Of a DNA stretch of 35,606 nt, positions 2 to 33,581 are shown in pieces. A program made the position numbers and the translations under genes. The DNA is taken from positions 1 through 35,606 of the forward strand of contig CAZHIX010000002.1 of assembly GCA_964532715.1 (NCBI GenBank), read 5' to 3'. Below the pieces are notes generated by a model, which did not search any database, was not told the DNA's origin, and saw only the letters and a list, made by a program, of their open reading frames with translations. This DNA comes from Candidatus Micrarchaeota archaeon (GTDB taxonomy: Archaea > Micrarchaeota > Micrarchaeia > Anstonellales > Anstonellaceae). Each line of letters opens with the position of its first letter. Position 1 is the stretch's first letter.

Positions 2-1369
2 GAAGTAAACGAGTTATGTCCACAATGTAAGCGAAATGGGCGCGTGTATTGTCCTCACAAACCACTTCTGTCAATAAAATCCTCACATATTAAAGATTTT
101 GATAAAACTGAATTTTTTGGTCCATCTCCTCCAAATATATTTGTAGGTCATTTCGGTTATCCAAAAATAAATGTTGGGCCTATGGTCTGTGTAGAAGCTG
201 GATTGTCAGACAATCCAAAAGATTGGTTTGGATGGAACTTTGATAAAATAATTTATGCACGTTCAATGCAGATTCGTTCTCAAATTAATTCTGCAGTATC
301 TGGTGCAAAAAATTTGCGCGCTCAAAAAATGGATTCTACGTCTGCTCGCATAATCTCAGATTCACAAGAAGCGGCTATGTCTGTGGCTGCAATTGACGTA
401 GAGACACATTTTTCAAAAAAGCCTATTTTGAACGTGTCATTTCATTCAATAAATCAGCCCATGGGTCCAAGCGCACCTCTAAAAAAATTAATTGTTGCTC
501 AAAATCCAAAAATCCCAAAAAAATTAGATGCTCTTGTTGATGATGGCGTGAAATCTCAAGACGCGTTACTTGAACTTTTTTCTCTTGGTTTTGATGAGCA
601 CTATTTAACTAGAATACTTACTGCTGGAGTTTTAGGAAAAAAAGACGCGCGTAAATTTGTTCCTACTAAGTGGGGTATAACTGCTGTGGACGATACGCTT
701 GCAAAAGCGCAGATTGAAAAAATCAAGCAATTGCCTCAAAATAGCGATTTTCTATTATATGAAGGTGAGTATCTTTCAAATCGTTTTCACATCCTAATAT
801 TACCTGGCGCATGGGAATATGAAAATTTTGAAGCATGGGTCGGTTCTTTATCCTCAAATTGGGTCGAAGACCCCGCAACTCAATCGACGGCTAAAGCCGT
901 CGGTGCACCAACGCCTGTATACAGGCGTTGGTTGTGTTGCGGGTCCAATTTGGGGATAGACTGCCGAATGAGGGATACCCCACTGCTTGCAGTGGGGACT
1001 CTTCGGCAGGCTTCATCAAATTTCAATATAAGTGTAGAGTATGAACCATATTGGGGTAGAACAAATTATGCATCTTCTCAAGGAGGCGGTTATTACTCTG
1101 CTCGGTTTAGTGTGTGTGAAATGCTTGTGTCCAAGCTTAAACGTCAAGCGCGCGTAGTTTTAATTCGTGAGATTTTGCCTGGGTATGAGTTGCCCTGTGG
1201 GGTCTGGGTAATTCGTGAAACTGTAAGAAATGCATTTTCAAACCCTGTTCAAAAATTTGCAAGCATAGAACAGTTGCAAGATGTTCTATGTAAAAATCTA
1301 AGCGCCCCTCTCTTGAATTTTATTTCAAAAAGCAATATTCTGGCACAAAAAAGGCTTGTTGATTTTTAA
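2..1369 (+). CDS. nreA: Nre-family DNA repair protein (NreA-like, Nre_N/Nre_C = DUF650/DUF651). The 5' end is cut by the window edge. It contains a 54-codon insertion (see findings).
   Basis: The frame is open back to nt 2 (EVNELCPQCKRNGRVYCP, a zinc-ribbon-like N-terminus upstream of the listed GTG at 44). Family blocks seen: FFGPSPPNIFVGHFGYP, FVPTKWGITAVDDTL, GAWEYENFEAW, GRTNYA..GGGYYSARF, PCGVWVIRETVRNAF. Confidence 0.8.
   Translation, partial: EVNELCPQCKRNGRVYCPHKPLLSIKSSHIKDFDKTEFFGPSPPNIFVGHFGYPKINVGPMVCVEAGLSDNPKDWFGWNFDKIIYARSMQIRSQINSAVSGAKNLRAQKMDSTSARIISDSQEAAMSVAAIDVETHFSKKPILNVSFHSINQPMGPSAPLKKLIVAQNPKIPKKLDALVDDGVKSQDALLELFSLGFDEHYLTRILTAGVLGKKDARKFVPTKWGITAVDDTLAKAQIEKIKQLPQNSDFLLYEGEYLSNRFHILILPGAWEYENFEAWVGSLSSNWVEDPATQSTAKAVGAPTPVYRRWLCCGSNLGIDCRMRDTPLLAVGTLRQASSNFNISVEYEPYWGRTNYASSQGGGYYSARFSVCEMLVSKLKRQARVVLIREILPGYELPCGVWVIRETVRNAFSNPVQKFASIEQLQDVLCKNLSAPLLNFISKSNILAQKRLVDF
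851..860 (+). repeat. Left copy of the 10-nt direct repeat (TCCTCAAATT) flanking the nreA insertion
   Basis: It matches 1013-1022 at 9 of 10 positions. Both copies are read as Ser-Ser-Asn in the nreA frame. Confidence 0.7.
1013..1022 (+). repeat. Right copy of the 10-nt direct repeat (TCATCAAATT) flanking the nreA insertion
   Basis: See the left copy. The offset is 162 nt, which is 54 codons. Confidence 0.7.
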
Positions 1370-1478: not shown

Positions 1479-3413
1479 ATGGTAGTTATCAAATCAAATA
1501 CAAATTCTTCTCTCCCCCAAAACACTCCGATAGATAATAAGACTGCTAAGTACGAAGCTCAAATAGCTAAAGCACAACTTGAAATTCTTAGACAAAACTT
1601 ACTTATTGATTATCTGGATAATGCAATTAAATCTTCAAAAGAACAACGAGCATCTGTTCTTAGTGGGGTGTATGATCCTCAAGTAAGTGCATCAATCAGA
1701 GATTTTATGATCAACCCCCAAAATAAACAAAATGAGCAAGTTCCTGCTGAAATTGATGTAAGTAAATTAGTTCTCAACGCTATATTGAACCCTGCGCAAA
1801 AACCAACAGATCCAAAAAATATCAATCACAGTGAAGTCGTGCGCGACTTTATATTAAATGGTTCAAACGCACAGGTTTTGGGCAACAAACAAAATTTGCA
1901 AAACGATATTCTTACTGAAGACACGAATTCTTCTAATCAATCCGATTCTGCAAATCAAGTTTCAGATGTTTCTGAAGCACCAAATGCAAATACTCAAGAA
2001 ATAATGGATGATGCAAAACAAAAATTCTCAAATTATCAAACCGAGGCAACGAGCTCTGATAGCAAGTTCTCATCTTATGATCAAGAGCTATTTCCAGAAT
2101 ACGAAAATAATACGACTGAGACTCCAGCGTCCACTCAAGAAAAAAGGACCTCTGATTCTAGCGACTCTTTTCCAATAGTTGGCGATTTAACCGAACCAAT
2201 TGATTCTGAATATGATAATTTCGACGATTCAGCTTTTGGTGCACAAGAAAACAAACGCGCACAAACTCAGCAAGACTTAGGACAAAATAATGTTCAATCA
2301 CAAGATGACGCTCAATCAAATGCAGATAACTTTGATGATGTCAACACTACCAAAAACACATCTTCTAAAAACACAACAAAAGAAAAATCAGGCAAATTCA
2401 AAAAGTTTGTAAAACGCTCTTTAGTTACACTTGCAATCGTAGCAGGCGCGTTTGGAATATACAAATCTTGCAACATGCCAACTGAGGATTCATACGTAAT
2501 CAACAATCCCCCTAAAATAGTTTTTCCTCAAGATTCATCCGAATCACAAAATCCTGCAGATTCTATTTTGATCCCGCCAAGCACTCCTGACACCTTACCA
2601 AAACAAATTCCTGCACCAATAGACACTTCTAAATCAACCAAAATTGTTCCAGTCAATCCAGCTACTCCAAAAGACACCTCTAATTTAGAAAATAACAAAA
2701 AACAGATTTCTGCTCGCTACACAGTTGAAGACGGAATATATAAATTCAATCTTTCAGATAAAGATGTTGAAAATCTTGCGCTTGCAAGAAAACTTGGTAT
2801 TTCAGGATTTTTCAAATACGTTTTACAAGCGCGTAGTGAATTCAAGGGCTTAGATAAAGAGTTTTTTGAAACTTTGAATAAGAATTGTATTTTGAATTTG
2901 AATAAAACATACGAAGAAGTATGCAAATCTTGCAATTACTGGAAAGTTTCTGATCTGCTAAACAAATCTGAAAACGGTACTCCTCAAGTTTGGATCAAAC
3001 TAACTGATTTAACCTCAGATTTAATCAATACTAATCCTTTATCGGTATTTGATTGCGATAAAATTTTGAGTTTGGCTGGAATGAGTGAGAACAATTTAAG
3101 CAAATTGTATTCAGACTATGATTCAAATGGCAACTACATAATCTATGCCAATTGGTTAAGTAGTGCCGATTCTGTGTCCATATCCGATTCCTCAAAAGTT
3201 TCAATGGCAGAAGTAAAACAAGCACTTAATGACTGCGGTTTTGTTATTTATGATGTTTTGCCATTAAGCAAATCATCGTTAAGCAAACAAACTTCCATTC
3301 AAACGCAAACACCTACGTCTCAAGAAATGCAATATATTGTTGTTCCATCTGACACGACAACTCAAAAGACGAATGAATGGTCCGTTCCATTGTGGCCACT
3401 AAACAAACACTAA
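1479..3413 (+). CDS. Hypothetical single-pass membrane protein. It has a long Asn/Gln/Ser/Asp-rich low-complexity N-terminal half, one TM helix (LVTLAIVAGAFGIY) and a Pro/Ser/Thr linker plus a C-terminal globular region.
   Basis: It is a long ORF with SD GGTGA 7 nt upstream of the ATG, and the TM segment is visible in the translation. I recognise no family motif. Confidence 0.7.
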   Translation: MVVIKSNTNSSLPQNTPIDNKTAKYEAQIAKAQLEILRQNLLIDYLDNAIKSSKEQRASVLSGVYDPQVSASIRDFMINPQNKQNEQVPAEIDVSKLVLNAILNPAQKPTDPKNINHSEVVRDFILNGSNAQVLGNKQNLQNDILTEDTNSSNQSDSANQVSDVSEAPNANTQEIMDDAKQKFSNYQTEATSSDSKFSSYDQELFPEYENNTTETPASTQEKRTSDSSDSFPIVGDLTEPIDSEYDNFDDSAFGAQENKRAQTQQDLGQNNVQSQDDAQSNADNFDDVNTTKNTSSKNTTKEKSGKFKKFVKRSLVTLAIVAGAFGIYKSCNMPTEDSYVINNPPKIVFPQDSSESQNPADSILIPPSTPDTLPKQIPAPIDTSKSTKIVPVNPATPKDTSNLENNKKQISARYTVEDGIYKFNLSDKDVENLALARKLGISGFFKYVLQARSEFKGLDKEFFETLNKNCILNLNKTYEEVCKSCNYWKVSDLLNKSENGTPQVWIKLTDLTSDLINTNPLSVFDCDKILSLAGMSENNLSKLYSDYDSNGNYIIYANWLSSADSVSISDSSKVSMAEVKQALNDCGFVIYDVLPLSKSSLSKQTSIQTQTPTSQEMQYIVVPSDTTTQKTNEWSVPLWPLNKH

Positions 3414-6649: not shown

Positions 6650-9556
6650 ATGGATGTGGTTTGTGATAATTGCAGTAGTGTTAACTATCATATTAAATAT
6701 GAAGATATATACTCTCCAATTGATTTAGCAGTAGCTTCTGCTATGAAATCTGGAATTAGTTTTTGCAAACCTATATCTGAATATTTCCAAAACAATGGGC
6801 ACACTGGTTTTTTCAACATTTCTTTTGACAAAATATCATTCAAAGATGAAAATACTGGGAATGTATATACCTTACGTCGCTTTCCGGTTTTTGTGGATGA
6901 TTATCAAGGGTTCTATATTTTACCTATTGAGTCTAGTAACTCTGAGAAAAACTCTACTAAAGATACTTCTGAAGATTTGTTCAACTCTGAGTCTAATACT
7001 AATAATTCATCTTCAAATCCTTCTAAATCCACTCAATGTTCTTTACGGGTTTATAGAATAAAATCTCACGAGTCTGTATCTGATAAAATATGGCGTCTGA
7101 CTACTGTTCAAAATGATTATGTGGGGCATATCCGACCTTTGCATCAATATAGCTTAAATATGAAAAATTATGAATTTTTAACGAGCAGTTGTTTATCTGA
7201 GCAAAAAAAAGAACATTTGCGTTCACTAAAAGAAACTATCAATACTCTCTATTCTTTAGAAGTAAAAGCGCAAACAACCATAAACGAGTATCTCAATCTC
7301 AACAGCGCAAAAATTTTTCCTCTAATTAAAGAATACGCTAAAACATTGTCAGATATCCGCGAGATATACGATCTTCGCCGTAGTTTTGTGTTCATAGATA
7401 CAAACTATTGGGCGGGTAATCATGCGGATTGGGTTAATCTTTGTGAATTCTTGCCATTTGAAAATATAAATGTCGATCAGCTACTTATTCATCTAGACTC
7501 AAAAAAGTACCATACAAAATTTAGGCGCACAACAACAAAGATTCTCAAATCTTTTTTTGAAAACCAGCACAACTTACTTTTTGAAAGTCCTGTCAATTAT
7601 ATCTATTCTGCAATTCGTGAGCTTGAGCATTCGCGATATGCTCCAGATAAGAAATTACTAAACTTATCCAATCTTGCAATGAAATATGATTTAGAATGCG
7701 CTTCATTAATGTCATTTTTAGATTCAATGAGTTTGCAAATTGATAAAAAAACTGCATCTGAACGCGAAATTAATGCTGAATTAATAAAAAAATTAATCTC
7801 GTTCTCAGATCTTAAGCTCTCAACTCTACGCTCTGCTCAAAAAATTCTCAACGATCTAAATACTCATAAAAAAAGTAATTCGTATGCGCTTGCACGTAGA
7901 ATGCTCTGTCTTTATATTGCTCGTCTAAGTTGGGCAGATTCACAAAACGACTCAAAACTGTTTTCTGAATTTATGGAGTTTTTTAAAGATTCCACTATAA
8001 CTTTCAAGTCAGCTTATTATCCTCTTCAATCTATTAATGCAATAAATCAAACTACACTCTCATTATCTAATTCTTTAATGTCAAAATCTTTTGGCGAAAA
8101 CCAAAAACAATACAAACAAGCGCGCAAAGAACTGCTTGATAATCTTGAAGTTATAGCATCAAAACTTGAATCAGAAGGTGCCCGTGTTTATGCAATTCGT
8201 GCAAGAGAATTTAGACAAAAAGAAGTTTCTCATTCAAGATACAAACTAGGTCCTCAACGTTATCTTGCATCAGAAATTTTTTCTGCATGGCATATATTGC
8301 AAGTGCTCTTATGCGAAAAAACGGGAGTATCTGATTTGCAAAAACAACTATTTCTTGAATTATCTCAAGATCTAGAGCGTGCTGTATCTCAAGCAATCAA
8401 TGCTATGAACTCATTGGTTTCAAGAGATTATGTTTCCAATTGTTTTTTTGTTAAAAATAATCCAACTCTGCATTATATTGAAAAATCTCCATCTGACATT
8501 TTTCCCATACACACACAACTGAACAGTCATGGTGATATAAAAATAGGTTTGGATATACTTATCCCAAAAACTGATAATTTTGTTCAACATACTTCTTCTG
8601 ATTCTATTTCTTCAATCAATTCTTCAAGTTCCAAAACTCAATCTATGAATTTAGGTCGGCGTATTTACAACGTGGTTTGTAAGGGCGATAAAATAGAAAA
8701 TTTTGAATTTAAAACAGACAATCTACGTCAAAGTCCTGCCAAATCTCCACCAATGCGACCAAACAAATACGAATTTATATTCGGACCAAAACTTTCTTAT
8801 CCTTCTAGTTTAAACTTTAGTGAAGAAGATGTAAAACAACTTGCAAATTATGTGCGTGCAAATAAATCTCATCGTGGCGAACTTGCGTCAATTGCATATA
8901 AGCTTCCATATATCTTTGGGCACGTAGTAAGTGCAGACCCATTTAGAGGTTGCAAACTGGTTCAATATGCTTCATACGATGATAATCAACTTTGTGTAGT
9001 GAACAAATTAGGTTTTTATCCTTCTGTTTTCCAAGAGGATGATGGAAATAATGTGTCAATTTGGGATGTAAGAAAATCTACAAATTCCAGCCTGCTTCAA
9101 AACATGTCTAAATTCGTAAACAATACTGCTCAAAAATTACTGCATCAAAAAGAAACAATCTCTTGCAACAACCTCGGTCGTGGTTCTTGGGATGATGTTC
9201 GTTGGCCTTGTGCAGCGAATATTCTTGTAAGTACCGAGTTTACTCAATTTCAATCTGCATTGTGTAACGAAGTAATCTCCGACCGGTTAAACTGTCTTAT
9301 GTCTGATGTTTTTGCAGTTGTTGATAAAGTTCTAAATCGTCTAGTGGTTGAGCAAAAGCAAAAATCAACATCCAAGACTATCTACGCCCCCGAAAATTCT
9401 TGCGAGCACAAACCTGTTTTGTCTCAATCGGATTCAAAAGAACCTGTATCCGATACACAATCAACAAGACGTGCAATCAATCTAATGAAGTCCAATTCAT
9501 CTGTTCCATACACACAACACACTAAAAATAACAAAATTGATCTACGCCAATTATAA
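6650..9556 (+). CDS. Large (968 aa) hypothetical cytoplasmic protein with no recognisable domain
   Basis: The ORF is uninterrupted over 2.9 kb in an AT-rich genome where random frames close quickly. No signal peptide or TM segment is visible. Internal Ser/Asn-rich linkers are present. Confidence 0.75.
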   Translation: MDVVCDNCSSVNYHIKYEDIYSPIDLAVASAMKSGISFCKPISEYFQNNGHTGFFNISFDKISFKDENTGNVYTLRRFPVFVDDYQGFYILPIESSNSEKNSTKDTSEDLFNSESNTNNSSSNPSKSTQCSLRVYRIKSHESVSDKIWRLTTVQNDYVGHIRPLHQYSLNMKNYEFLTSSCLSEQKKEHLRSLKETINTLYSLEVKAQTTINEYLNLNSAKIFPLIKEYAKTLSDIREIYDLRRSFVFIDTNYWAGNHADWVNLCEFLPFENINVDQLLIHLDSKKYHTKFRRTTTKILKSFFENQHNLLFESPVNYIYSAIRELEHSRYAPDKKLLNLSNLAMKYDLECASLMSFLDSMSLQIDKKTASEREINAELIKKLISFSDLKLSTLRSAQKILNDLNTHKKSNSYALARRMLCLYIARLSWADSQNDSKLFSEFMEFFKDSTITFKSAYYPLQSINAINQTTLSLSNSLMSKSFGENQKQYKQARKELLDNLEVIASKLESEGARVYAIRAREFRQKEVSHSRYKLGPQRYLASEIFSAWHILQVLLCEKTGVSDLQKQLFLELSQDLERAVSQAINAMNSLVSRDYVSNCFFVKNNPTLHYIEKSPSDIFPIHTQLNSHGDIKIGLDILIPKTDNFVQHTSSDSISSINSSSSKTQSMNLGRRIYNVVCKGDKIENFEFKTDNLRQSPAKSPPMRPNKYEFIFGPKLSYPSSLNFSEEDVKQLANYVRANKSHRGELASIAYKLPYIFGHVVSADPFRGCKLVQYASYDDNQLCVVNKLGFYPSVFQEDDGNNVSIWDVRKSTNSSLLQNMSKFVNNTAQKLLHQKETISCNNLGRGSWDDVRWPCAANILVSTEFTQFQSALCNEVISDRLNCLMSDVFAVVDKVLNRLVVEQKQKSTSKTIYAPENSCEHKPVLSQSDSKEPVSDTQSTRRAINLMKSNSSVPYTQHTKNNKIDLRQL

Positions 9557-15102: not shown

Positions 15103-16224
15103 TCACTGTTTTGTTTTATTCTCTGGTTTTTTTACTGCTATTCTCCATATGCGCGTTCGTCCCTGTCCTTTTCTCACTTCTTCACATTCTAAAATTCCAA
15201 TTGTGTTTAGCTTCTCTAAATGATTTCTTATCCCCCTTATTTTTTCTTGAGGTATTTTTAATTTATCATAAATCTGACCTGACTCAATAGGGGTTCTATT
15301 GTCACGCACGATCTGGATTATTTTTTTGTCAACATCTTCAAGTGCATTTTCTTTTCTTTGTGCAAGCGTATTCTCTGTTTGCACTGCGCGTTCTCTAACT
15401 GCTTGCACATGTTCAACTGTAATTTTTTTACACGACTGAGTTTGAGCTTTTTTTGCTGATGCCCAAAGCAAGTGTAGTGCAAGTCTCGCATCTCCTTGTG
15501 ATTTTGCGCCTATCCCTGCGCAAAGCCCTAATACGTCCTCGTCATATGCGTCATCAAATAATGCTATTTTTGCTCTTTGTCTAAGTATTTCTTTGAGCTG
15601 AGTAGGTGTGTATTGTTCAAAATAAATCGTGTGATTTGCAAGCACAGACCTGACGCGCGCATCAAGTTTTAATGTAATCTCCTTTTCATTTGTTATGGCA
15701 ATCAATGAACTTGATAACCCTATAGCTTCTTGTGATCTTGATAAATCGTAGAGAATTTTATCGTCTTGTGTTGAACTATCTAAGAGTCTATCTACTTCGT
15801 CAAGTATGATGATTGGGATTCTTTTTTCTCTTCTTCCAATCTCTGCGAGTCTTGCAACTATTTCATCAGTTGCAATTCCTCTTCGTGGAAGCATATCTCC
15901 AAGTTCAATCACAATCTTGTTCAATATCGCGTATCTTGTAGTTGTCTCCCAACAATTGATGTAAATCATAATTGGAGCGTTTGAAACTTCACATAACTGA
16001 GTAAGTAATAATTTGGATATCGTAGTTTTTCCAGTTCCCGGGGGTCCAACCAACAACATAGATTGAGGTGCGACTCCGCGTGTCGCCTCTTGCAAATACG
16101 ATGCCATGTCTTTCATCTGTCGTTCTCTTGTGGGCATTTCGTCTGGCATGAACTCAGGCCTTAGTGCATTTTCATTTTTGAATATATCGCTGTTTTTTTC
16201 CATCTGGCGAAAAATGTTTGCCAT
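15103..16224 (-). CDS. cdc6: Orc1/Cdc6 replication initiator (paralog 1)
   Basis: It has Walker A GPPGTGKTT, Walker B IIILDEVD, sensor regions and a C-terminal winged helix (RNHLEKLNTIGILECEE..GRTRIW). Confidence 0.9.
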   Translation of the reverse strand: MANIFRQMEKNSDIFKNENALRPEFMPDEMPTRERQMKDMASYLQEATRGVAPQSMLLVGPPGTGKTTISKLLLTQLCEVSNAPIMIYINCWETTTRYAILNKIVIELGDMLPRRGIATDEIVARLAEIGRREKRIPIIILDEVDRLLDSSTQDDKILYDLSRSQEAIGLSSSLIAITNEKEITLKLDARVRSVLANHTIYFEQYTPTQLKEILRQRAKIALFDDAYDEDVLGLCAGIGAKSQGDARLALHLLWASAKKAQTQSCKKITVEHVQAVRERAVQTENTLAQRKENALEDVDKKIIQIVRDNRTPIESGQIYDKLKIPQEKIRGIRNHLEKLNTIGILECEEVRKGQGRTRIWRIAVKKPENKTKQ

Positions 16225-20503: not shown

Positions 20504-21760
20504 TCATCCCTGCTCAAGCTTTGTTTGTTGTATTGTGGGTGCGCAATATCCAATCAGTGCACCTAGAGCTTTTTGAGACATTATAATATCTTTCATTTGT
20601 TGTGGTTCATATCCCGGTTTTATCAATCTGGTGTGACCACGTAGGCCCCTTCCAGATTCAATAGTTGTAATAAGTCCAAGCATTTCTAAATCGTTTAGAT
20701 ACTCTCTATACCATCTTGCAGATCGCTTTGGTTTTTTGAATTGTCTGCATACTTTTGAATATTCTTCATAAACTTCTCCTGACATGAGACTTTTTTCAAT
20801 ATCTTGTCCGTCTGTAAGTTTTTTGTAACTTGAGCTTTTGAGCCATAAATTACAAACTGCAAGTAATACTAATTGTTGATGTGTAGGTAGCGTGGCTATA
20901 GTCTCAGCTGCTAAATCCACATCCACATTTCTTCTTGCCTGTTCAACCTCGCTGTCTGTAACTATCCCAATCTTTTTCTCATCAGCATATTCTCCTGCCT
21001 TTAATAGAAGCTTTAATGCATATCTTGCATCACCCGTTTCTGATGCCACTATGGCAGACGCTAAATTTATTGCAGACTCATGAACTGTCCCATCCTTGAA
21101 TCCTTCCATAGCTCTTTGTTCAAGTATCGCGCGCAACTGAATTGGCGTATAAGTTGCAAACGCCATCTCAGTTTCACATAATGACGATTTGCTTCTTGAA
21201 TCTAGCGCATCTTTAAACGATAATCTATTAGTTATACCTATAATTGTAACTGAACCTACCTTGAGCTCGTCGTTCATTCTGGTCAGCGTATACATTAATT
21301 CGTCTAAATCTTTTACCATATCAACTTCATCAAGTATAACTATAACTCTTCTTGGGATAGCGCCAAGATTATCTATATACTCAATCAATTTTTCATAAAA
21401 ATGTGAAAGCCCAAACCCAGTTTTATCAAGTTCTGGCAAATACTCCTTTGCAATTTTCTGTATGACTCTATATCTGGAATTATACATTCTGCAATTTACA
21501 TAAACTGGTGGCGATTCTGGTTTTTTTTGCACGTATTCTCGCATAACCATTCTTACTGTGCAAGTTTTTCCTGTCCCAGTTTTTCCATATATGAATAAGT
21601 TTCTAGGCCGTTCCCCATTTATTGCAGGCGCAACCGAAACCATAACTTTCTCAATCTCTTTATCTCTAAATGGTAAAACTTCAGGTACAAAATGTGGGGA
21701 CAGCACGTCTCGTTTTCTAAAAACCGTCGGAGAAGATAATATCTCATCAAATGAAGGCAT
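20504..21760 (-). CDS. cdc6: Orc1/Cdc6 replication initiator (paralog 2)
   Basis: It has Walker A GKTGTGKT, Walker B VIVILDEVD, GDARYALKLL (sensor 2) and a C-terminal winged helix (YLNDLEMLGLI..ESGRGLRGHTRLI). Confidence 0.9.
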   Translation of the reverse strand: MPSFDEILSSPTVFRKRDVLSPHFVPEVLPFRDKEIEKVMVSVAPAINGERPRNLFIYGKTGTGKTCTVRMVMREYVQKKPESPPVYVNCRMYNSRYRVIQKIAKEYLPELDKTGFGLSHFYEKLIEYIDNLGAIPRRVIVILDEVDMVKDLDELMYTLTRMNDELKVGSVTIIGITNRLSFKDALDSRSKSSLCETEMAFATYTPIQLRAILEQRAMEGFKDGTVHESAINLASAIVASETGDARYALKLLLKAGEYADEKKIGIVTDSEVEQARRNVDVDLAAETIATLPTHQQLVLLAVCNLWLKSSSYKKLTDGQDIEKSLMSGEVYEEYSKVCRQFKKPKRSARWYREYLNDLEMLGLITTIESGRGLRGHTRLIKPGYEPQQMKDIIMSQKALGALIGYCAPTIQQTKLEQG

Positions 21761-32153: not shown

Positions 32154-33581
32154 TCAAATCACTTTTGATAGCAAGCTCTCCACTAATTTTATTATCTGAT
32201 CAATAATTGTATTCTCTTCTCTTAATTTATCAATTGACTTTACTGCATTATTTATTTTTTGCTGTTTTTGTTCAAGCTGTTCATTTGCATATGCTAAAAG
32301 TACTTCACTTTCAATGAGCTTTGCTTCATTAAATTTTTGTTCAACAATTCCATCTTGCATTGGAAAAACCAATGTAGAATTAAACTCAACATACTTATCA
32401 TAAATCTGTTTGGAAGTTTCAATCTCTAAATCCATTTGTTCAAGCGTGTCTTCAATTTTCTGAGTCAATTTTTTTAGTTTGTTTATTTTCTCAACACTGT
32501 CATTAATCTCAACTAATATATCTGTTGCTTCAATCTCAAGCCCTTTTCCTATATTTATTGCATTATAATATTGCCCATTTTCAGTCATATTCTTTATTTC
32601 TAGCCATTCCTGTTCCCAGTTCGCATATTTTTCAACGTGTTTTTGTTTATCTATTGATCCAATCTCTTCTTGTGCAAGTGTGCGTGTAATTTTTGCATCT
32701 AATTTACTCAAATTAGAATTAATTTTTGAAAAAACTTCTTGTCTTTGTTGTAAATATGTTTTCCATTCCTGTGTTCTTTTTGATATATCCACTGCTCTTT
32801 CATCTTCGTATTGTTCTGAAAGCTTATTTGCCACCTGCTTCCATTCTAAAGAATTTTTTTCAAACTCATTAATTTCAAAACCAGTTTTTGGGCAATATTC
32901 ATAACAGTCTCTATACCCTCCAAACCCACACCCTTCATCTTCTATGGTCAATAAAAGTGCACTATTTTCAATTTTATCAATATTCTCTAATATCTGCTCA
33001 ATAGTTTCATGCACATATAATGCATTTTTTTGTTCAACTTGTGCGTTTTGCAAATGCTCACTTAAGTTCTGCATACTTTTCAAAACAAATTCACTTCTTT
33101 TCTTATAATCAAACATGCATTCCCAAAATCCGTCTGCATAAACTGCAACTGACGATATCGGGGTTGAGAGGCCTGCCAGCAAACAACTATCTTTATCATA
33201 ACAGTCGTATCTATCCATTCCTGTCATTTTGTAACATTCGTCTTTTGCTTGTTTAAATGACTGTTGATTTGCATAAATAAGCTCATTTGTGGATTTAGTT
33301 GCATTGTTAAATCCACTGGCAATCGCCATATTTTTTTTCAATACTTTATAAATATCTTCAGAATGCTCAATGAGTTTGCCATCGGTTCCGATAACCAACG
33401 TTTCTTGTCCTTCAATCGTGATTATAGTAATCTGTCCATTGTCATCTAACAGTATCTGTTCTGTATAATCAAGCTGAGGTTCAATATATTCTGATGGTGC
33501 GTATGCATAGGTGTTTGCAACTAAACACGTCCAAACAAGTAAGCTAATCATGCTAATTAGTGTTTTAGGTTCATTTCTCAT
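32154..33581 (-). CDS. Secreted hypothetical protein with a Cys-containing N-terminal domain and a long Glu/Lys/Gln-rich coiled-coil C-terminal half
   Basis: An N-terminal signal-like helix is present (LISMISLLVWTCLVANTYAYA). No family was recognised. Confidence 0.65.
   Translation of the reverse strand: MRNEPKTLISMISLLVWTCLVANTYAYAPSEYIEPQLDYTEQILLDDNGQITIITIEGQETLVIGTDGKLIEHSEDIYKVLKKNMAIASGFNNATKSTNELIYANQQSFKQAKDECYKMTGMDRYDCYDKDSCLLAGLSTPISSVAVYADGFWECMFDYKKRSEFVLKSMQNLSEHLQNAQVEQKNALYVHETIEQILENIDKIENSALLLTIEDEGCGFGGYRDCYEYCPKTGFEINEFEKNSLEWKQVANKLSEQYEDERAVDISKRTQEWKTYLQQRQEVFSKINSNLSKLDAKITRTLAQEEIGSIDKQKHVEKYANWEQEWLEIKNMTENGQYYNAINIGKGLEIEATDILVEINDSVEKINKLKKLTQKIEDTLEQMDLEIETSKQIYDKYVEFNSTLVFPMQDGIVEQKFNEAKLIESEVLLAYANEQLEQKQQKINNAVKSIDKLREENTIIDQIIKLVESLLSKVI

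What the first reader, a model, noticed from the sequence alone, without database searches (positions are those of the whole stretch)
847..1009. The nreA insert folds into a near-perfect two-domain structure, and one arm base-pairs with its own 5' flank
Seen directly, paired by hand:
- S1: 847-862 pairs with 945-960. That is 16 pairs including two G-U, with 14 contiguous from 849-862/945-958 and a single T854-G953 wobble.
- S2: 872-879 pairs with 936-943 (8 bp).
- S3: 885-891 pairs with 896-902 (7 bp, loop TAAA).
- S4: 908-917 pairs with 922-931 (10 bp, loop TATA).
- S5: 961-968 pairs with 1002-1009 (8 bp) and continues after a 1-nt bulge as 970-972/999-1001.
- S6: 978-985 pairs with 990-997 (8 bp, loop CTTG).
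Together these form a three-way junction closed by a long stem, followed immediately by a long hairpin. The 5' strand of S1 is the left direct-repeat copy, that is, the putative target or exon sequence. The element therefore carries an internal inverted copy (CCAATTTGGGGATA) of the sequence flanking its own insertion site. This recalls guide-target pairings (group I P1/IGS with its G-U, group II EBS/IBS, bridge or guide RNAs of IS elements), although no cognate enzyme gene is nearby. An imperfect terminal inverted repeat also exists: CGAAGACCCC at 865-874 against the reverse complement of 994-1005, CGAAGAGTCCCC. This density of pairing in a coding region of an AT-rich genome is not expected by chance.
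Basis: seen in the sequence. Interest (0 to 1): 0.75.

Follow-up and report, generated by a model that had tools for sequence, protein, structure and literature searches.

The report
Transposase-less hairpin transposon inside nreA
The GC-rich, strongly folding stretch inside the nreA gene of this tiny archaeon is a copy of a small mobile DNA element with no gene of its own; it landed next to a TTTAT motif, is read through as 55 extra codons, and looks like an ordinary IS200/IS605-type parasite rather than a new ribozyme or guide RNA.

Summary

Most of the interpretation does not hold. The "left direct repeat / exon" strand of S1 is not flanking sequence. Positions 852-862 recur in every copy of a repeated element found in unrelated contexts: three metagenome contigs and one NCBI protein.

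- **Boundaries.** All copies begin after TTTAT and end with TTCAT. They have no terminal inverted repeats and no target duplication.
- **Empty site.** L049 matches the filled site L005 for 77 nt and stops matching within 2 nt after TTTAT. So TTTAT already existed in the target.
- **Insert size.** The inserted DNA is window 852-1016: 165 nt, 55 codons.
- **Family.** This is the signature of IS200/IS605-family palindrome-associated elements (PATEs). AAGA and GATA sit just 5' of two CCCC-footed hairpins and fit the IS608 guide/cleavage-site rule for TTAT and TCAT.
- **Effect on nreA.** The element sits in a variable NreA loop, in the only stop-free frame of six. A G at 931 gives TGG where the other copies have TGA.

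There is no Rfam match, no BHB intron motif and no covariation. The mobilising transposase was not found. Verdict: a new member of a known kind, of moderate interest.

The parts
2..1369 (+). nreA (DNA repair protein NreA), N-terminally cut by the window edge; host gene of the insertion
   Evidence: Pfam Nre_N (residues 13-280, E 3e-73) and Nre_C (348-450, E 6e-29). 1075 homologues, the best from Micrarchaeota. The same gene order is found in L002/L003, whose NreA lacks the insert.
847..851 (+). TTTAT: target motif (transposon-adjacent motif, TAM) kept on the left flank; not part of the inserted DNA
   Evidence: Invariant in all four DNA copies. It is present in the empty site L049, which matches the filled site L005 for 77 nt up to TTTAT(CT) and then diverges.
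852..1016 (+). The inserted element: 165 nt (55 codons), no transposase gene, no terminal inverted repeats, no target duplication
   Evidence: Conserved block shared with L004 175-346, L006 1186-1355 and L005 1630-1728 at 85-91% identity. The closest NreA homologues have 5 residues between the invariant W and NF; removing 852-1016 leaves W-VGSLS-NF.
847..863 (+). S1, 5' strand (TAM plus the first 12 nt of the element); pairs with 944-960
   Evidence: S1 is 100% paired in all copies and is the least variable part: 2 of 34 columns vary against 31 of 136 elsewhere, Fisher p = 0.028.
867..870 (+). AAGA: candidate left guide tetranucleotide (G_L), unpaired, directly 5' of the CCCC foot of S2, 19 nt after the TAM
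   Evidence: It is the only AAxA in the element and lies in the unpaired internal loop 864-871 of the MFE. The IS608 rule predicts AAxA for the cleavage site TTAT (PMC5934647, PMC3201880). Present in L005 and L006, destroyed in L004.
872..943 (+). Left-end palindrome: S2 (872-879/936-943) enclosing hairpins S3 (881-904) and S4 (907-932)
   Evidence: S3 is invariant except for one cell. S2 and S4 carry uncompensated breaks in L004, L005 and L006.
929..931 (+). Codon TGG (Trp) in the nreA frame; TGA in the three other DNA copies
   Evidence: Alignment A3. The ORF of P0122 in L006 ends at exactly this TGA. G931 also restores the C908-G931 pair.
944..960 (+). S1, 3' strand (TCCAATTTGGGGATAGA): complement of the element's first 12 nt and, through ATAGA 956-960, of the TAM
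961..1009 (+). Right-end hairpin domain: S5 (961-968/1002-1009 and 970-972/999-1001) and S6 (978-985/990-997, loop CTTG)
   Evidence: One compensatory pair, 962/1008 (T-A, T-G, C-G).
974..977 (+). GATA: candidate right guide tetranucleotide (G_R), unpaired, directly 5' of the CCCC foot of S6
   Evidence: Lies in the internal loop 973-977 of the MFE. Present in all three complete copies. The IS608 rule predicts GAxA for the cleavage site TCAT.
1012..1016 (+). TTCAT: last 5 nt of the element (transposon-encoded motif, TEM; right cleavage site)
   Evidence: Identical in the window, L004 and L006, and followed by unrelated flanks CAAATTTC / GCAAATAT / CTACTATG.

Best explanation
The stretch is one copy of a small, non-autonomous mobile DNA element of Micrarchaeota. 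It is best classified as a palindrome-associated transposable element (PATE) of the IS200/IS605 type.

Shown:
- It is a repeated element that occurs in unrelated genomic contexts.
- It inserts immediately 3' of a pre-existing TTTAT and ends in TTCAT.
- It makes no target duplication, has no terminal inverted repeats and is too short to encode a protein.
- In nreA the inserted DNA is 852-1016 (165 nt). It lies in a variable loop between the Nre_N and Nre_C domains, in the only orientation and frame without a stop codon.

Inferred:
- It moves as single-stranded DNA, mobilised in trans by a Y1 HUH transposase (TnpA) encoded elsewhere in the genome.
- The dense pairing is the set of hairpins such a transposase recognises on the top (+) strand.
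- The unpaired tetranucleotides AAGA (867-870) and GATA (974-977), just 5' of the two CCCC-footed hairpins, are the DNA guides. They pair with the left cleavage site TTAT (in the target) and the right cleavage site TCAT (in the element), as in IS608.
- In nreA the element is not removed. It is transcribed and translated as a 55-residue, probably disordered, loop insertion that NreA tolerates.
For: 1. Repeated element. Copies at 85-91% identity lie in L004 (intergenic, upstream of a nucleotidyltransferase gene), L005 (9 nt after a stop codon) and L006 (between or inside ORFs). A further copy, on its reverse strand, forms the last 46 residues and the stop of P0121.
2. Boundaries. The conserved block starts with TTTAT and ends with TTCAT in every complete copy. 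Flanks are unrelated, with no TIR and no TSD. The right-hand pentamer is TTCAT, not TTTAT, in 3 of 3 copies, so it belongs to the element and is not a duplication.
3. Empty site. L049 carries the same 232-aa gene as L005 (100% identical) and reads ...GTGTTTAGTTTAT|CTATTAGC..., where L005 reads ...GTGTTTAGTTTAT|CTTCAAATTGGG.... So TTTAT pre-exists, and the insertion is polymorphic between samples.
4. Size. Removing 852-1016 leaves five residues (VGSLS) between the invariant W and NF, the same number as in the nine closest homologues aligned except P0005, which has four.
5. Definition of the class. PATEs have no ITRs, have near-terminal palindromes, make no target duplication and are too short for a transposase, and the 5' palindrome lies farther from the end than the 3' one (PMC3119063). 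IS608 inserts 3' of a tetranucleotide that stays on the left flank only; its cleavage sites pair with 4 nt lying 5' of each hairpin foot, and C_L lies 19 nt from the foot (PMC3201880).
6. Guide rule. In IS608, G_L AAAG goes with C_L TTAC and G_R GAAT with C_R TCAA, with G1 pairing C-3 and G2 pairing C-4 (PMC5934647). That the fourth guide base pairs with C-1 is my inference from the two IS608 sequence pairs. The rule predicts AAxA for TTAT and GAxA for TCAT. The observed tetranucleotides are AAGA (the only AAxA in the element, 19 nt after the TAM) and GATA. Both lie in unpaired internal loops directly 5' of CCCC-footed stems. The T/C difference between TAM and TEM is matched by the A/G difference between the guides.
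7. Precedent. TTTAT and TTCAT are experimentally established TAMs of IS200/IS605 elements ISGst2 and ISGst5, which also have PATE-like derivatives (PMC10055086).
8. Host range. More than 65% of Micrarchaeota genomes carry IS200/IS605 elements (PMC13343696).
9. Read-through.
   - Only one of the six frames is stop-free, and it is the nreA frame.
   - G931 gives TGG where the other copies have TGA.
   - The family-invariant NreA residues are kept.
   - AlphaFold gives pLDDT below 50 for residues 284-335, between confident strands 272-280 and 341-348.
Against: - No autonomous IS200/IS605 element with the same ends, and no tnpA or tnpB, was found. The window has none, and the searchable collections gave no parent element.
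- Only three complete and one partial DNA copies are available.
- The left 'hairpin' is a 72-nt three-way junction rather than the simple palindrome of about 20-30 nt seen in IS608.
- C871, needed for the exact 4-nt register of AAGA, faces T944 and is unpaired in the MFE.
- The two hairpins share only the ACCCC foot.
- The guide match was found after the fact; I estimate its chance probability at roughly 0.02-0.03.
- The right junction of the L005/L049 pair is missing because the contig ends.
- The 19-nt spacing and the guide rule are taken from a bacterial element (IS608).
- Translation of the insert was not observed.
Confidence: 0.6

Rival explanations
1. It is a non-autonomous mobile element that targets TTTAT but is moved by some other or unknown machinery. 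Candidates are a rolling-circle IS91/Helitron-like enzyme, a site-specific recombinase, or an undescribed archaeal system. The resemblance to IS200/IS605 guides would then be coincidental.
For: Mobility, target motif, absence of TIR and TSD, and filled/empty polymorphism are shown. None of them names the enzyme. No TnpA or parent IS was found. The left-end structure is atypical for IS608-like ends. Three of four left flanks read TC before TTTAT, a hint of a longer target preference.
Against: The whole combination is the defining set for IS200/IS605 and PATEs: a left-flank-only target pentamer, a similar but distinct element-encoded 3' pentamer, subterminal hairpins, and guide tetranucleotides that fit the IS608 rule at both ends. 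TTTAT and TTCAT are known TAMs of that family. IS110-type targeting would give conserved flanks on both sides, which is not seen.
Confidence: 0.22
2. The element is, in addition or mainly, an RNA gene. Either it is a stand-alone omega-RNA-like guide scaffold, as many PATEs carry, whose 3' guide would be the flank 1017-1032 and which would direct a TnpB encoded elsewhere to the empty TTTAT|CAAATTTC... site; or it is another stable structured RNA of about 165 nt.
For: The + strand folds extremely well as RNA. PATEs 'often encode omega-RNAs' acted on in trans by TnpB (PMC10055086). The TAM of such a nuclease would be the TTTAT found here. S1 is significantly less variable than the rest of the element.
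Against: There is no Rfam match. There is no covariation: one compensatory pair, no better than shuffled controls. Helix-breaking transitions are as frequent in the C-A class (13 cells) as in the G-U class (9 cells), so neither strand looks selected as RNA. The - strand and the DNA fold are equally exceptional. No tnpB is in the window. No expression data exist.
Confidence: 0.12
3. It is an intron that is spliced out of nreA mRNA so that normal NreA is made. It could be an archaeal bulge-helix-bulge intron, or a self-splicing or IStron-like element whose internal guide pairs with the 5' exon. This is the spirit of the reader's P1/IGS or EBS/IBS idea.
For: The insert is a multiple of three and sits inside a coding region. 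S1 includes 5 nt of true flank. IS605-family elements fused to group I introns exist (title and abstract of bioRxiv 10.1101/2023.11.20.567912).
Against: A systematic scan finds no in-frame BHB with flanking helices. No group I, group II or small-ribozyme model matches even at E <= 10; the only ribozyme line is Hammerhead_1 at 12.6 bits against a gathering score of 34. 165 nt is too small for a group I or II core. Other copies are intergenic or on the antisense strand of genes. The frame is kept open by a copy-specific TGG where the consensus has TGA, which would be pointless if the insert were spliced out.
Confidence: 0.03
4. It is a native, protein-level loop expansion of NreA whose nucleotide pairing is incidental.
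For: The same loop carries other insertions (12 to about 55 residues) in other Micrarchaeota NreA proteins.
Against: The same 165-170 nt occur outside nreA in four other places, in both orientations and in non-coding DNA. Fold z = -11.5. GC is 59% in a 35% GC genome.
Confidence: 0.01

Closest known systems
PATEs (palindrome-associated transposable elements) of Haloquadratum walsbyi and the PATE-like derivatives of Geobacillus ISGst elements; non-autonomous IS200/IS605 derivatives (PMC3119063; PMC10055086)
   Same: No terminal inverted repeats, no target duplication, palindromes near both ends, too short to encode a transposase, and a short 4-5-nt targeting sequence at the 5' side only. The 5' palindrome lies farther from the end than the 3' one. 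The same pentamers (TTTAT, TTCAT) serve as TAMs in ISGst2 and ISGst5.
   Different: The host is a DPANN archaeon (Micrarchaeota). There is no sequence similarity to any described element and no identified parent IS. The left end is a three-way junction closed by a 17-bp helix that also pairs with the TAM. This copy sits in frame inside a conserved gene.
IS608 / ISDra2 (IS200/IS605 paradigm; PMC3201880, PMC5934647)
   Same: Insertion 3' of a specific short motif that stays on the left flank. The right end finishes with a related motif. Guide tetranucleotides lie 5' of the hairpin feet and fit the G1:C-3, G2:C-4, G4:C-1 rule. There are 19 nt between the left cleavage site and the hairpin foot.
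   Different: No tnpA or tnpB. The target is a pentamer rather than a tetramer. There are 15 nt rather than 10 nt between the right hairpin and the cleavage motif. The two hairpins share only the ACCCC foot. The long S1 helix has no IS608 counterpart.
Rickettsia palindromic elements (RPEs) and other intragenic MITEs (review PMC10969869)
   Same: Structured repeats of about 150 bp that insert in frame into unrelated housekeeping genes and are translated as extra peptide segments in positions compatible with protein function.
   Different: Unrelated sequence and host. RPEs encode a conserved peptide and are frequently intragenic. Here only one of five known copies is clearly an in-frame insertion, and the consensus element has a stop codon in that frame.
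Classical MITEs (TIR plus TSD, DDE-transposase dependent)
   Same: Small, non-autonomous, multicopy, strongly folding.
   Different: No terminal inverted repeats and no target-site duplication, so it is not a MITE in the strict sense.
Bridge RNA of IS110, IGS/P1 of group I introns, EBS/IBS of group II introns
   Same: A segment inside the element (ATAGA, 956-960) is complementary to the short target motif beside the insertion site.
   Different: No recombinase. Right flanks are not conserved. No intron or ribozyme core (Rfam negative). The complementarity to true flank is 5 nt, not 14-16 nt.

Membership tests
IS200/IS605-derived PATE | No terminal inverted repeats | tested here: met
   Left end CCTCAAATTGGG... 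and right end ...GGCAGGCTTCAT are not inverse complements. The only inverted repeat is internal and poorly conserved.
IS200/IS605-derived PATE | No target-site duplication | tested here: met
   Flanks of three complete copies share nothing. The 3' pentamer is TTCAT in all three copies while the 5' one is TTTAT. The empty site L049 has a single TTTAT. The right junction of that particular pair is not available.
IS200/IS605-derived PATE | Insertion 3' of a specific 4-6-nt target that remains on the left flank only | tested here: met
   TTTAT precedes all four copies and pre-exists in the empty site L049, which is otherwise identical to L005 for 77 nt. The junction is ambiguous by 2 nt (CT).
IS200/IS605-derived PATE | Subterminal palindromes (hairpins) near both ends on one strand | tested here: met
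   S2-S4 begin 19-20 nt from the left end, and the S5/S6 hairpin ends 7 nt from the right end. The left one is an unusually large three-way junction.
IS200/IS605-derived PATE | Guide tetranucleotides 5' of each hairpin foot, complementary to the cleavage sites (IS608 rule) | tested here: inconclusive
   AAGA|CCCC and GATA|CCCC fit AAxA for TTAT and GAxA for TCAT, and both are unpaired in the MFE. The match is post hoc, depends on counting the unpaired C871 as the foot, and rests on four copies without covariation.
IS200/IS605-derived PATE | Too short to encode a transposase | tested here: met
   165 nt. The six-frame translation matches only other copies.
IS200/IS605-derived PATE | Ends shared with an autonomous tnpA/tnpB element; mobilisation by Y1 TnpA | tested here: inconclusive
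   No parent element was found in the window, in GTDB genomes, in IMG/VR or in phage and plasmid records. The source genome and the metagenomes could not be searched exhaustively. Enzymology is not testable here.
Classical MITE | Terminal inverted repeats and target-site duplication | tested here: not met
Archaeal BHB intron | Bulge-helix-bulge motif (3-nt bulges, 4-bp helix, flanking helices) at in-frame splice sites | tested here: not met
   An exhaustive scan of 800-900 x 960-1060 found no in-frame candidate with more than 5 flanking base pairs in total.
Group I / group II intron, small self-cleaving ribozymes, any Rfam family | Match to the family covariance model | tested here: not met
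   No hit at gathering score in the whole window. The best line at E <= 10 over 700-1150 is psRNA14, 20 bits against a gathering score of 60. Hammerhead_1 scores 12.6 against 34.
IS110-type element with bridge RNA | Sequence-specific target recognised on both sides of a core, hence conserved left and right flanks; DEDD recombinase | tested here: not met
   Right flanks are CAAATTTC / GCAAATAT / CTACTATG (L049: CTATTAGC), and left flanks beyond TTTAT differ. No recombinase in the window.
Rickettsia palindromic elements | Sequence membership in an RPE family; conserved encoded peptide; frequent in-frame insertion | tested here: not met
   There is no similarity outside the five copies found here. 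The analogy is functional only: an in-frame, tolerated insertion.

The most novel reading that the evidence does not exclude
The invariant S1 strand 945-960 may act as a Watson-Crick 'splint'. In one continuous helix it pairs with the element's own first 11 nt and with the 5-nt target motif TTTAT. In the excised single-stranded circle it could hold an incoming TTTAT end-to-end with the element's 5' end. That would be a canonical-helix form of target read-out not described for IS200/IS605, where a non-canonical tetranucleotide guide does this job. Alternatively, the whole 165-nt element could be a free-standing omega-RNA gene that programmes a distant TnpB against the empty nreA site. Either reading would make this a new variant of transposon-encoded guide/target recognition in DPANN archaea.
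Probability: 0.15. Interest if true: 0.6.

Novelty: new member of a known kind. Interest (0 to 1): 0.35.

Why it matters
- It explains an alarming-looking structure as a known kind of selfish DNA, and removes the suggestion of a new ribozyme or guide RNA.
- My two literature searches on MITEs turned up no description of such an element in Micrarchaeota. The boundaries are defined by a filled/empty site pair.
- It is an archaeal example of a structured transposon read through in frame inside a conserved repair gene, as Rickettsia palindromic elements are. A copy-specific TGG replaces the consensus TGA, a small but clean case of how mobile DNA can add peptide segments to proteins.
- For annotation, such GC-rich islands in AT-rich DPANN genomes should not be called ncRNA genes or introns without checking for repeated copies.
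- The TTTAT TAM and the guide candidates give testable predictions for the TnpA/TnpB systems of these organisms.

Tried and rejected
- **Rfam.** Gathering threshold on the whole window, and E <= 10 on 700-1150: nothing credible.
- **tRNA/tmRNA scan.** None in the window.
- **Second copy in the window.** None, by repeat finder or by nhmmer profile.
- **BHB intron scan.** Rejected.
Rejected: 847-862 is conserved in other copies, and L006 lacks the repeat.
- **Collection scans for copies.**
  - IMG/VR with a peptide query and four DNA patterns: only chance hits.
  - GTDB genomes with peptide patterns: none.
  - GTDB genomes with the right-end 19-mer: 42 hits, nearly all in Actinomycetota, matching only about 22-30 nt, so chance.
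  - Phage and plasmid BLAST: none.
- **Six-frame concatenated protein query.** Found only P0121. The HMMER representative search added P0122; its other three hits are low-complexity noise.
- **Source contig.** The look-ups of the window's own 644-aa protein, of P0121 and of P0127 found no record, so the source genome could not be read.
- **Covariation.** Not informative with four sequences.
- **Pfam on reconstructed L006 ORFs.** No hit, so it stays open whether L006 is a second in-frame insertion.
- **The insert in P0014/L001 at the same NreA loop.** It is a GC-rich low-complexity protein insertion, not this element.
Full report
**1. The observation**

The window is an AT-rich (35% GC) stretch of a Micrarchaeota (DPANN archaeon) genome. 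The ORF at 2-1369 (+) is nreA. Pfam finds Nre_N at residues 13-280 and Nre_C at 348-450, and the best of 1075 homologues are Micrarchaeota proteins.

S1 has 14 Watson-Crick and 2 G-T pairs; S2 to S6 are all Watson-Crick. The minimum-energy fold reproduces the two-domain architecture.

| Molecule folded | Energy (kcal/mol) | z-score |
|---|---|---|
| RNA, + strand | -98.9 (shuffles -51.7 +/- 4.1; 0 of 200 as good) | -11.5 |
| RNA, - strand | -91.6 | -10.0 |
| DNA, + strand | -58.3 | -11.3 |

The stretch is also the strongest GC island in 35.6 kb.

**2. It is an insert, and it is a repeated element**

An alignment of 25 NreA homologues shows that the nine closest ones aligned (57-69% identity) have only four or five residues between the invariant FEAW and NFxIS. 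The window has 60 codons there. The relatives L002 and L003 share the gene order nreA - large ORF - LemA - M48 - ... - tRNA deacylase but have no insert.

The element occurs elsewhere:
- A translated search of JGI metagenome contigs found two copies, L004 (complete, intergenic) and L005 (cut by the contig end, 9 nt after a stop codon).
- A six-frame protein query found P0121, an NCBI protein whose last 46 residues and stop codon are the reverse strand of a copy.
- A HMMER search of protein representatives found P0122, which led to L006, a third complete copy.

The copies are 85-91% identical and lie in unrelated contexts.

The block shared by all of them corresponds to window 847-1016.

**3. 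Boundaries**

The shared block starts with TTTAT and ends with TTCAT in every complete copy. Beyond it the flanks are unrelated. There are no terminal inverted repeats and no duplication.

The decisive result is an empty site. The 232-aa gene next to the L005 copy occurs, 100% identical, on another JGI contig, L049. The two sequences are identical for 77 nt through ...GTGTTTAGTTTAT(CT). L049 then continues with ATTAGCATATACG..., whereas L005 continues with the element. Three conclusions follow:
- TTTAT was already in the target.
- The inserted DNA begins right after it, with a 2-nt ambiguity.
- The insertion is polymorphic between samples, so the element has been mobile recently.

In the window the inserted DNA is therefore 852-1016, 165 nt or 55 codons. 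Removing it leaves W-VGSLS-NF, the five-residue loop length of nearly all the closest homologues.

L006 has no such repeat.

**4. What kind of element**

The following set of properties is the published definition of IS200/IS605-type elements and their transposase-less derivatives, the PATEs (PMC3119063; PMC3201880):
- no TIR and no TSD;
- insertion 3' of a short motif that stays only on the left flank;
- a similar but distinct motif as the last bases of the element;
- hairpins near both ends;
- no coding capacity.

TTTAT and TTCAT are themselves experimentally verified transposon-adjacent motifs of the Geobacillus elements ISGst2 and ISGst5, which also have PATE-like derivatives (PMC10055086). 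A 2026 survey reports IS200/IS605 elements in more than 65% of Micrarchaeota genomes (PMC13343696).

In IS608 the cleavage sites are read by 4-nt DNA guides lying immediately 5' of each hairpin foot: G_L AAAG with C_L TTAC, and G_R GAAT with C_R TCAA. Guide base 1 pairs with C-3 and guide base 2 with C-4. From the two IS608 sequence pairs I infer that guide base 4 pairs with C-1. C_L lies 19 nt from the foot.

Applied here, the rule predicts AAxA for TTAT and GAxA for TCAT.

| End | Cleavage site | Predicted guide | Observed | Position |
|---|---|---|---|---|
| Left | TTAT (target) | AAxA | AAGA, 867-870 | The only AAxA in the element; 19 nt after the TAM; directly before CCCCGCAAC (S2) |
| Right | TCAT (element) | GAxA | GATA, 974-977 | Directly before CCCCACTG (S6) |

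Both tetranucleotides lie in the two unpaired internal loops of the fold. The T/C difference between the two cleavage motifs is matched by the A/G difference between the guides.

I regard this as suggestive, not proven.
- It was noticed after the fact, and I estimate a chance probability of about 0.02-0.03.
- It requires counting the unpaired C871 as the hairpin foot.
- The left 'hairpin' is an unusually large three-way junction.

No autonomous partner (tnpA or tnpB with the same ends) could be found. The window has none, and the collections I could scan have none either.

**5. Is the structure an RNA?**

No Rfam family matches. With four sequences there is one compensatory pair (962/1008), no better than shuffled controls. 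The other helices carry uncompensated breaks in L004, L005 and L006.

The breaks are transitions of both classes: 13 C-A cells against 9 G-U cells on the + strand. Neither strand looks selected as RNA. L004 folds much less well (-71.7 kcal/mol). This is what decaying copies of a DNA element look like.

One feature is unusually constant. The S1 strands plus the TAM vary at 2 of 34 columns, against 31 of 136 elsewhere (Fisher p = 0.028). S1 continues without interruption from the element's first bases into the target-derived TTTAT, which pairs with ATAGA at 956-960.

Whether this helix has a role is open. It could be a splint that aligns target and element end, or part of an omega-RNA-like scaffold.

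**6. What happens to nreA**

A bulge-helix-bulge intron is excluded by an exhaustive scan. 165 nt without any Rfam intron or ribozyme signal is too small for self-splicing.

The evidence favours read-through:
- Of the six reading frames of the element, only one is free of stops, and it is the nreA frame.
- The three other DNA copies have TGA at the codon corresponding to 929-931, where the window has TGG. The ORF of P0122 ends at exactly that TGA. Selection for an open frame makes sense only if the insert is translated.
- The NreA residues invariant across the family are kept.
- An AlphaFold model places the insert (residues 284-335, pLDDT below 50) between two confident beta strands.
- Other Micrarchaeota NreA proteins carry unrelated protein-level insertions of 12 to about 55 residues in the same loop, so the loop tolerates insertions.

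This parallels the in-frame Rickettsia palindromic elements (PMC10969869).

**7. Verdict**

| Claim | Confidence |
|---|---|
| The feature is real but not a new class: it is a transposase-less mobile element | about 0.95 |
| It is IS200/IS605-type (a PATE) | about 0.6 |
| It inserted 3' of TTTAT in a permissive loop of nreA and is read through as 55 codons | inferred |

The guide/exon interpretation is largely refuted, apart from the 5-nt target motif.

Novelty: a new member of a known kind, in a phylum for which my two literature searches on MITEs turned up no description of such an element. Interest is moderate.

Noticed in passing
window 836-1024 (NreA loop after FEAW); L001 3870-4170: Many other Micrarchaeota NreA proteins (P0011-P0027) carry a different insertion in the same loop. 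It starts GPMxCxNATPV and reaches about 55 residues of GC-rich low-complexity sequence in P0014. The loop appears to be a recurrent, tolerated insertion site.
   Followed up: partly
window 929-931: This codon is TGG in the window but TGA in L004, L005 and L006. The consensus element would therefore truncate NreA. The same G931 also restores the C908-G931 base pair.
   Followed up: yes
L006 1129-1530 (- strand) and 980-1270 (+ strand): A minus-strand ORF reads through the whole L006 copy and 17 codons beyond. A G at the position of window 882 removes the only stop of that reverse frame. This may be a second in-frame insertion. A plus-strand ORF (P0122) also runs into the element. Pfam gave no help in deciding which ORF is real.
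   Followed up: partly
P0121 (NCBI protein, 249 aa; DNA not retrievable): The last 46 residues and the stop codon of this protein are the reverse strand of an element copy, so the element has replaced or extended a gene's 3' end.
   Followed up: partly
window 15103-16224 (-) and 20504-21760 (-): Two Orc1/Cdc6 genes lie within about 5 kb of each other, so a replication origin may be nearby. Small GC-rich patches at about 16013-16150 lie inside the first gene.
   Followed up: no
window 1479-3413, 6650-9556, 32154-33581: Three large ORFs (644, 968 and 475 aa) have no Pfam domain. The 644-aa one is conserved in position next to nreA in L002/L003.
   Followed up: no
L007-L048 (GTDB genomes): The 19-mer GCAGTGGGGACTCTTCGGC from the right hairpin occurs once in each of 42 genomes, nearly all Actinomycetota. 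Only about 22-30 nt match, presumably a conserved coding segment in GC-rich genomes unrelated to the element.
   Followed up: partly
window as a whole: Exact-protein look-ups of a window protein (the 644-aa ORF) and of the closest NCBI relatives (P0121, P0127) return no contig. The source genome could therefore not be inspected for further copies or for tnpA/tnpB.
   Followed up: yes
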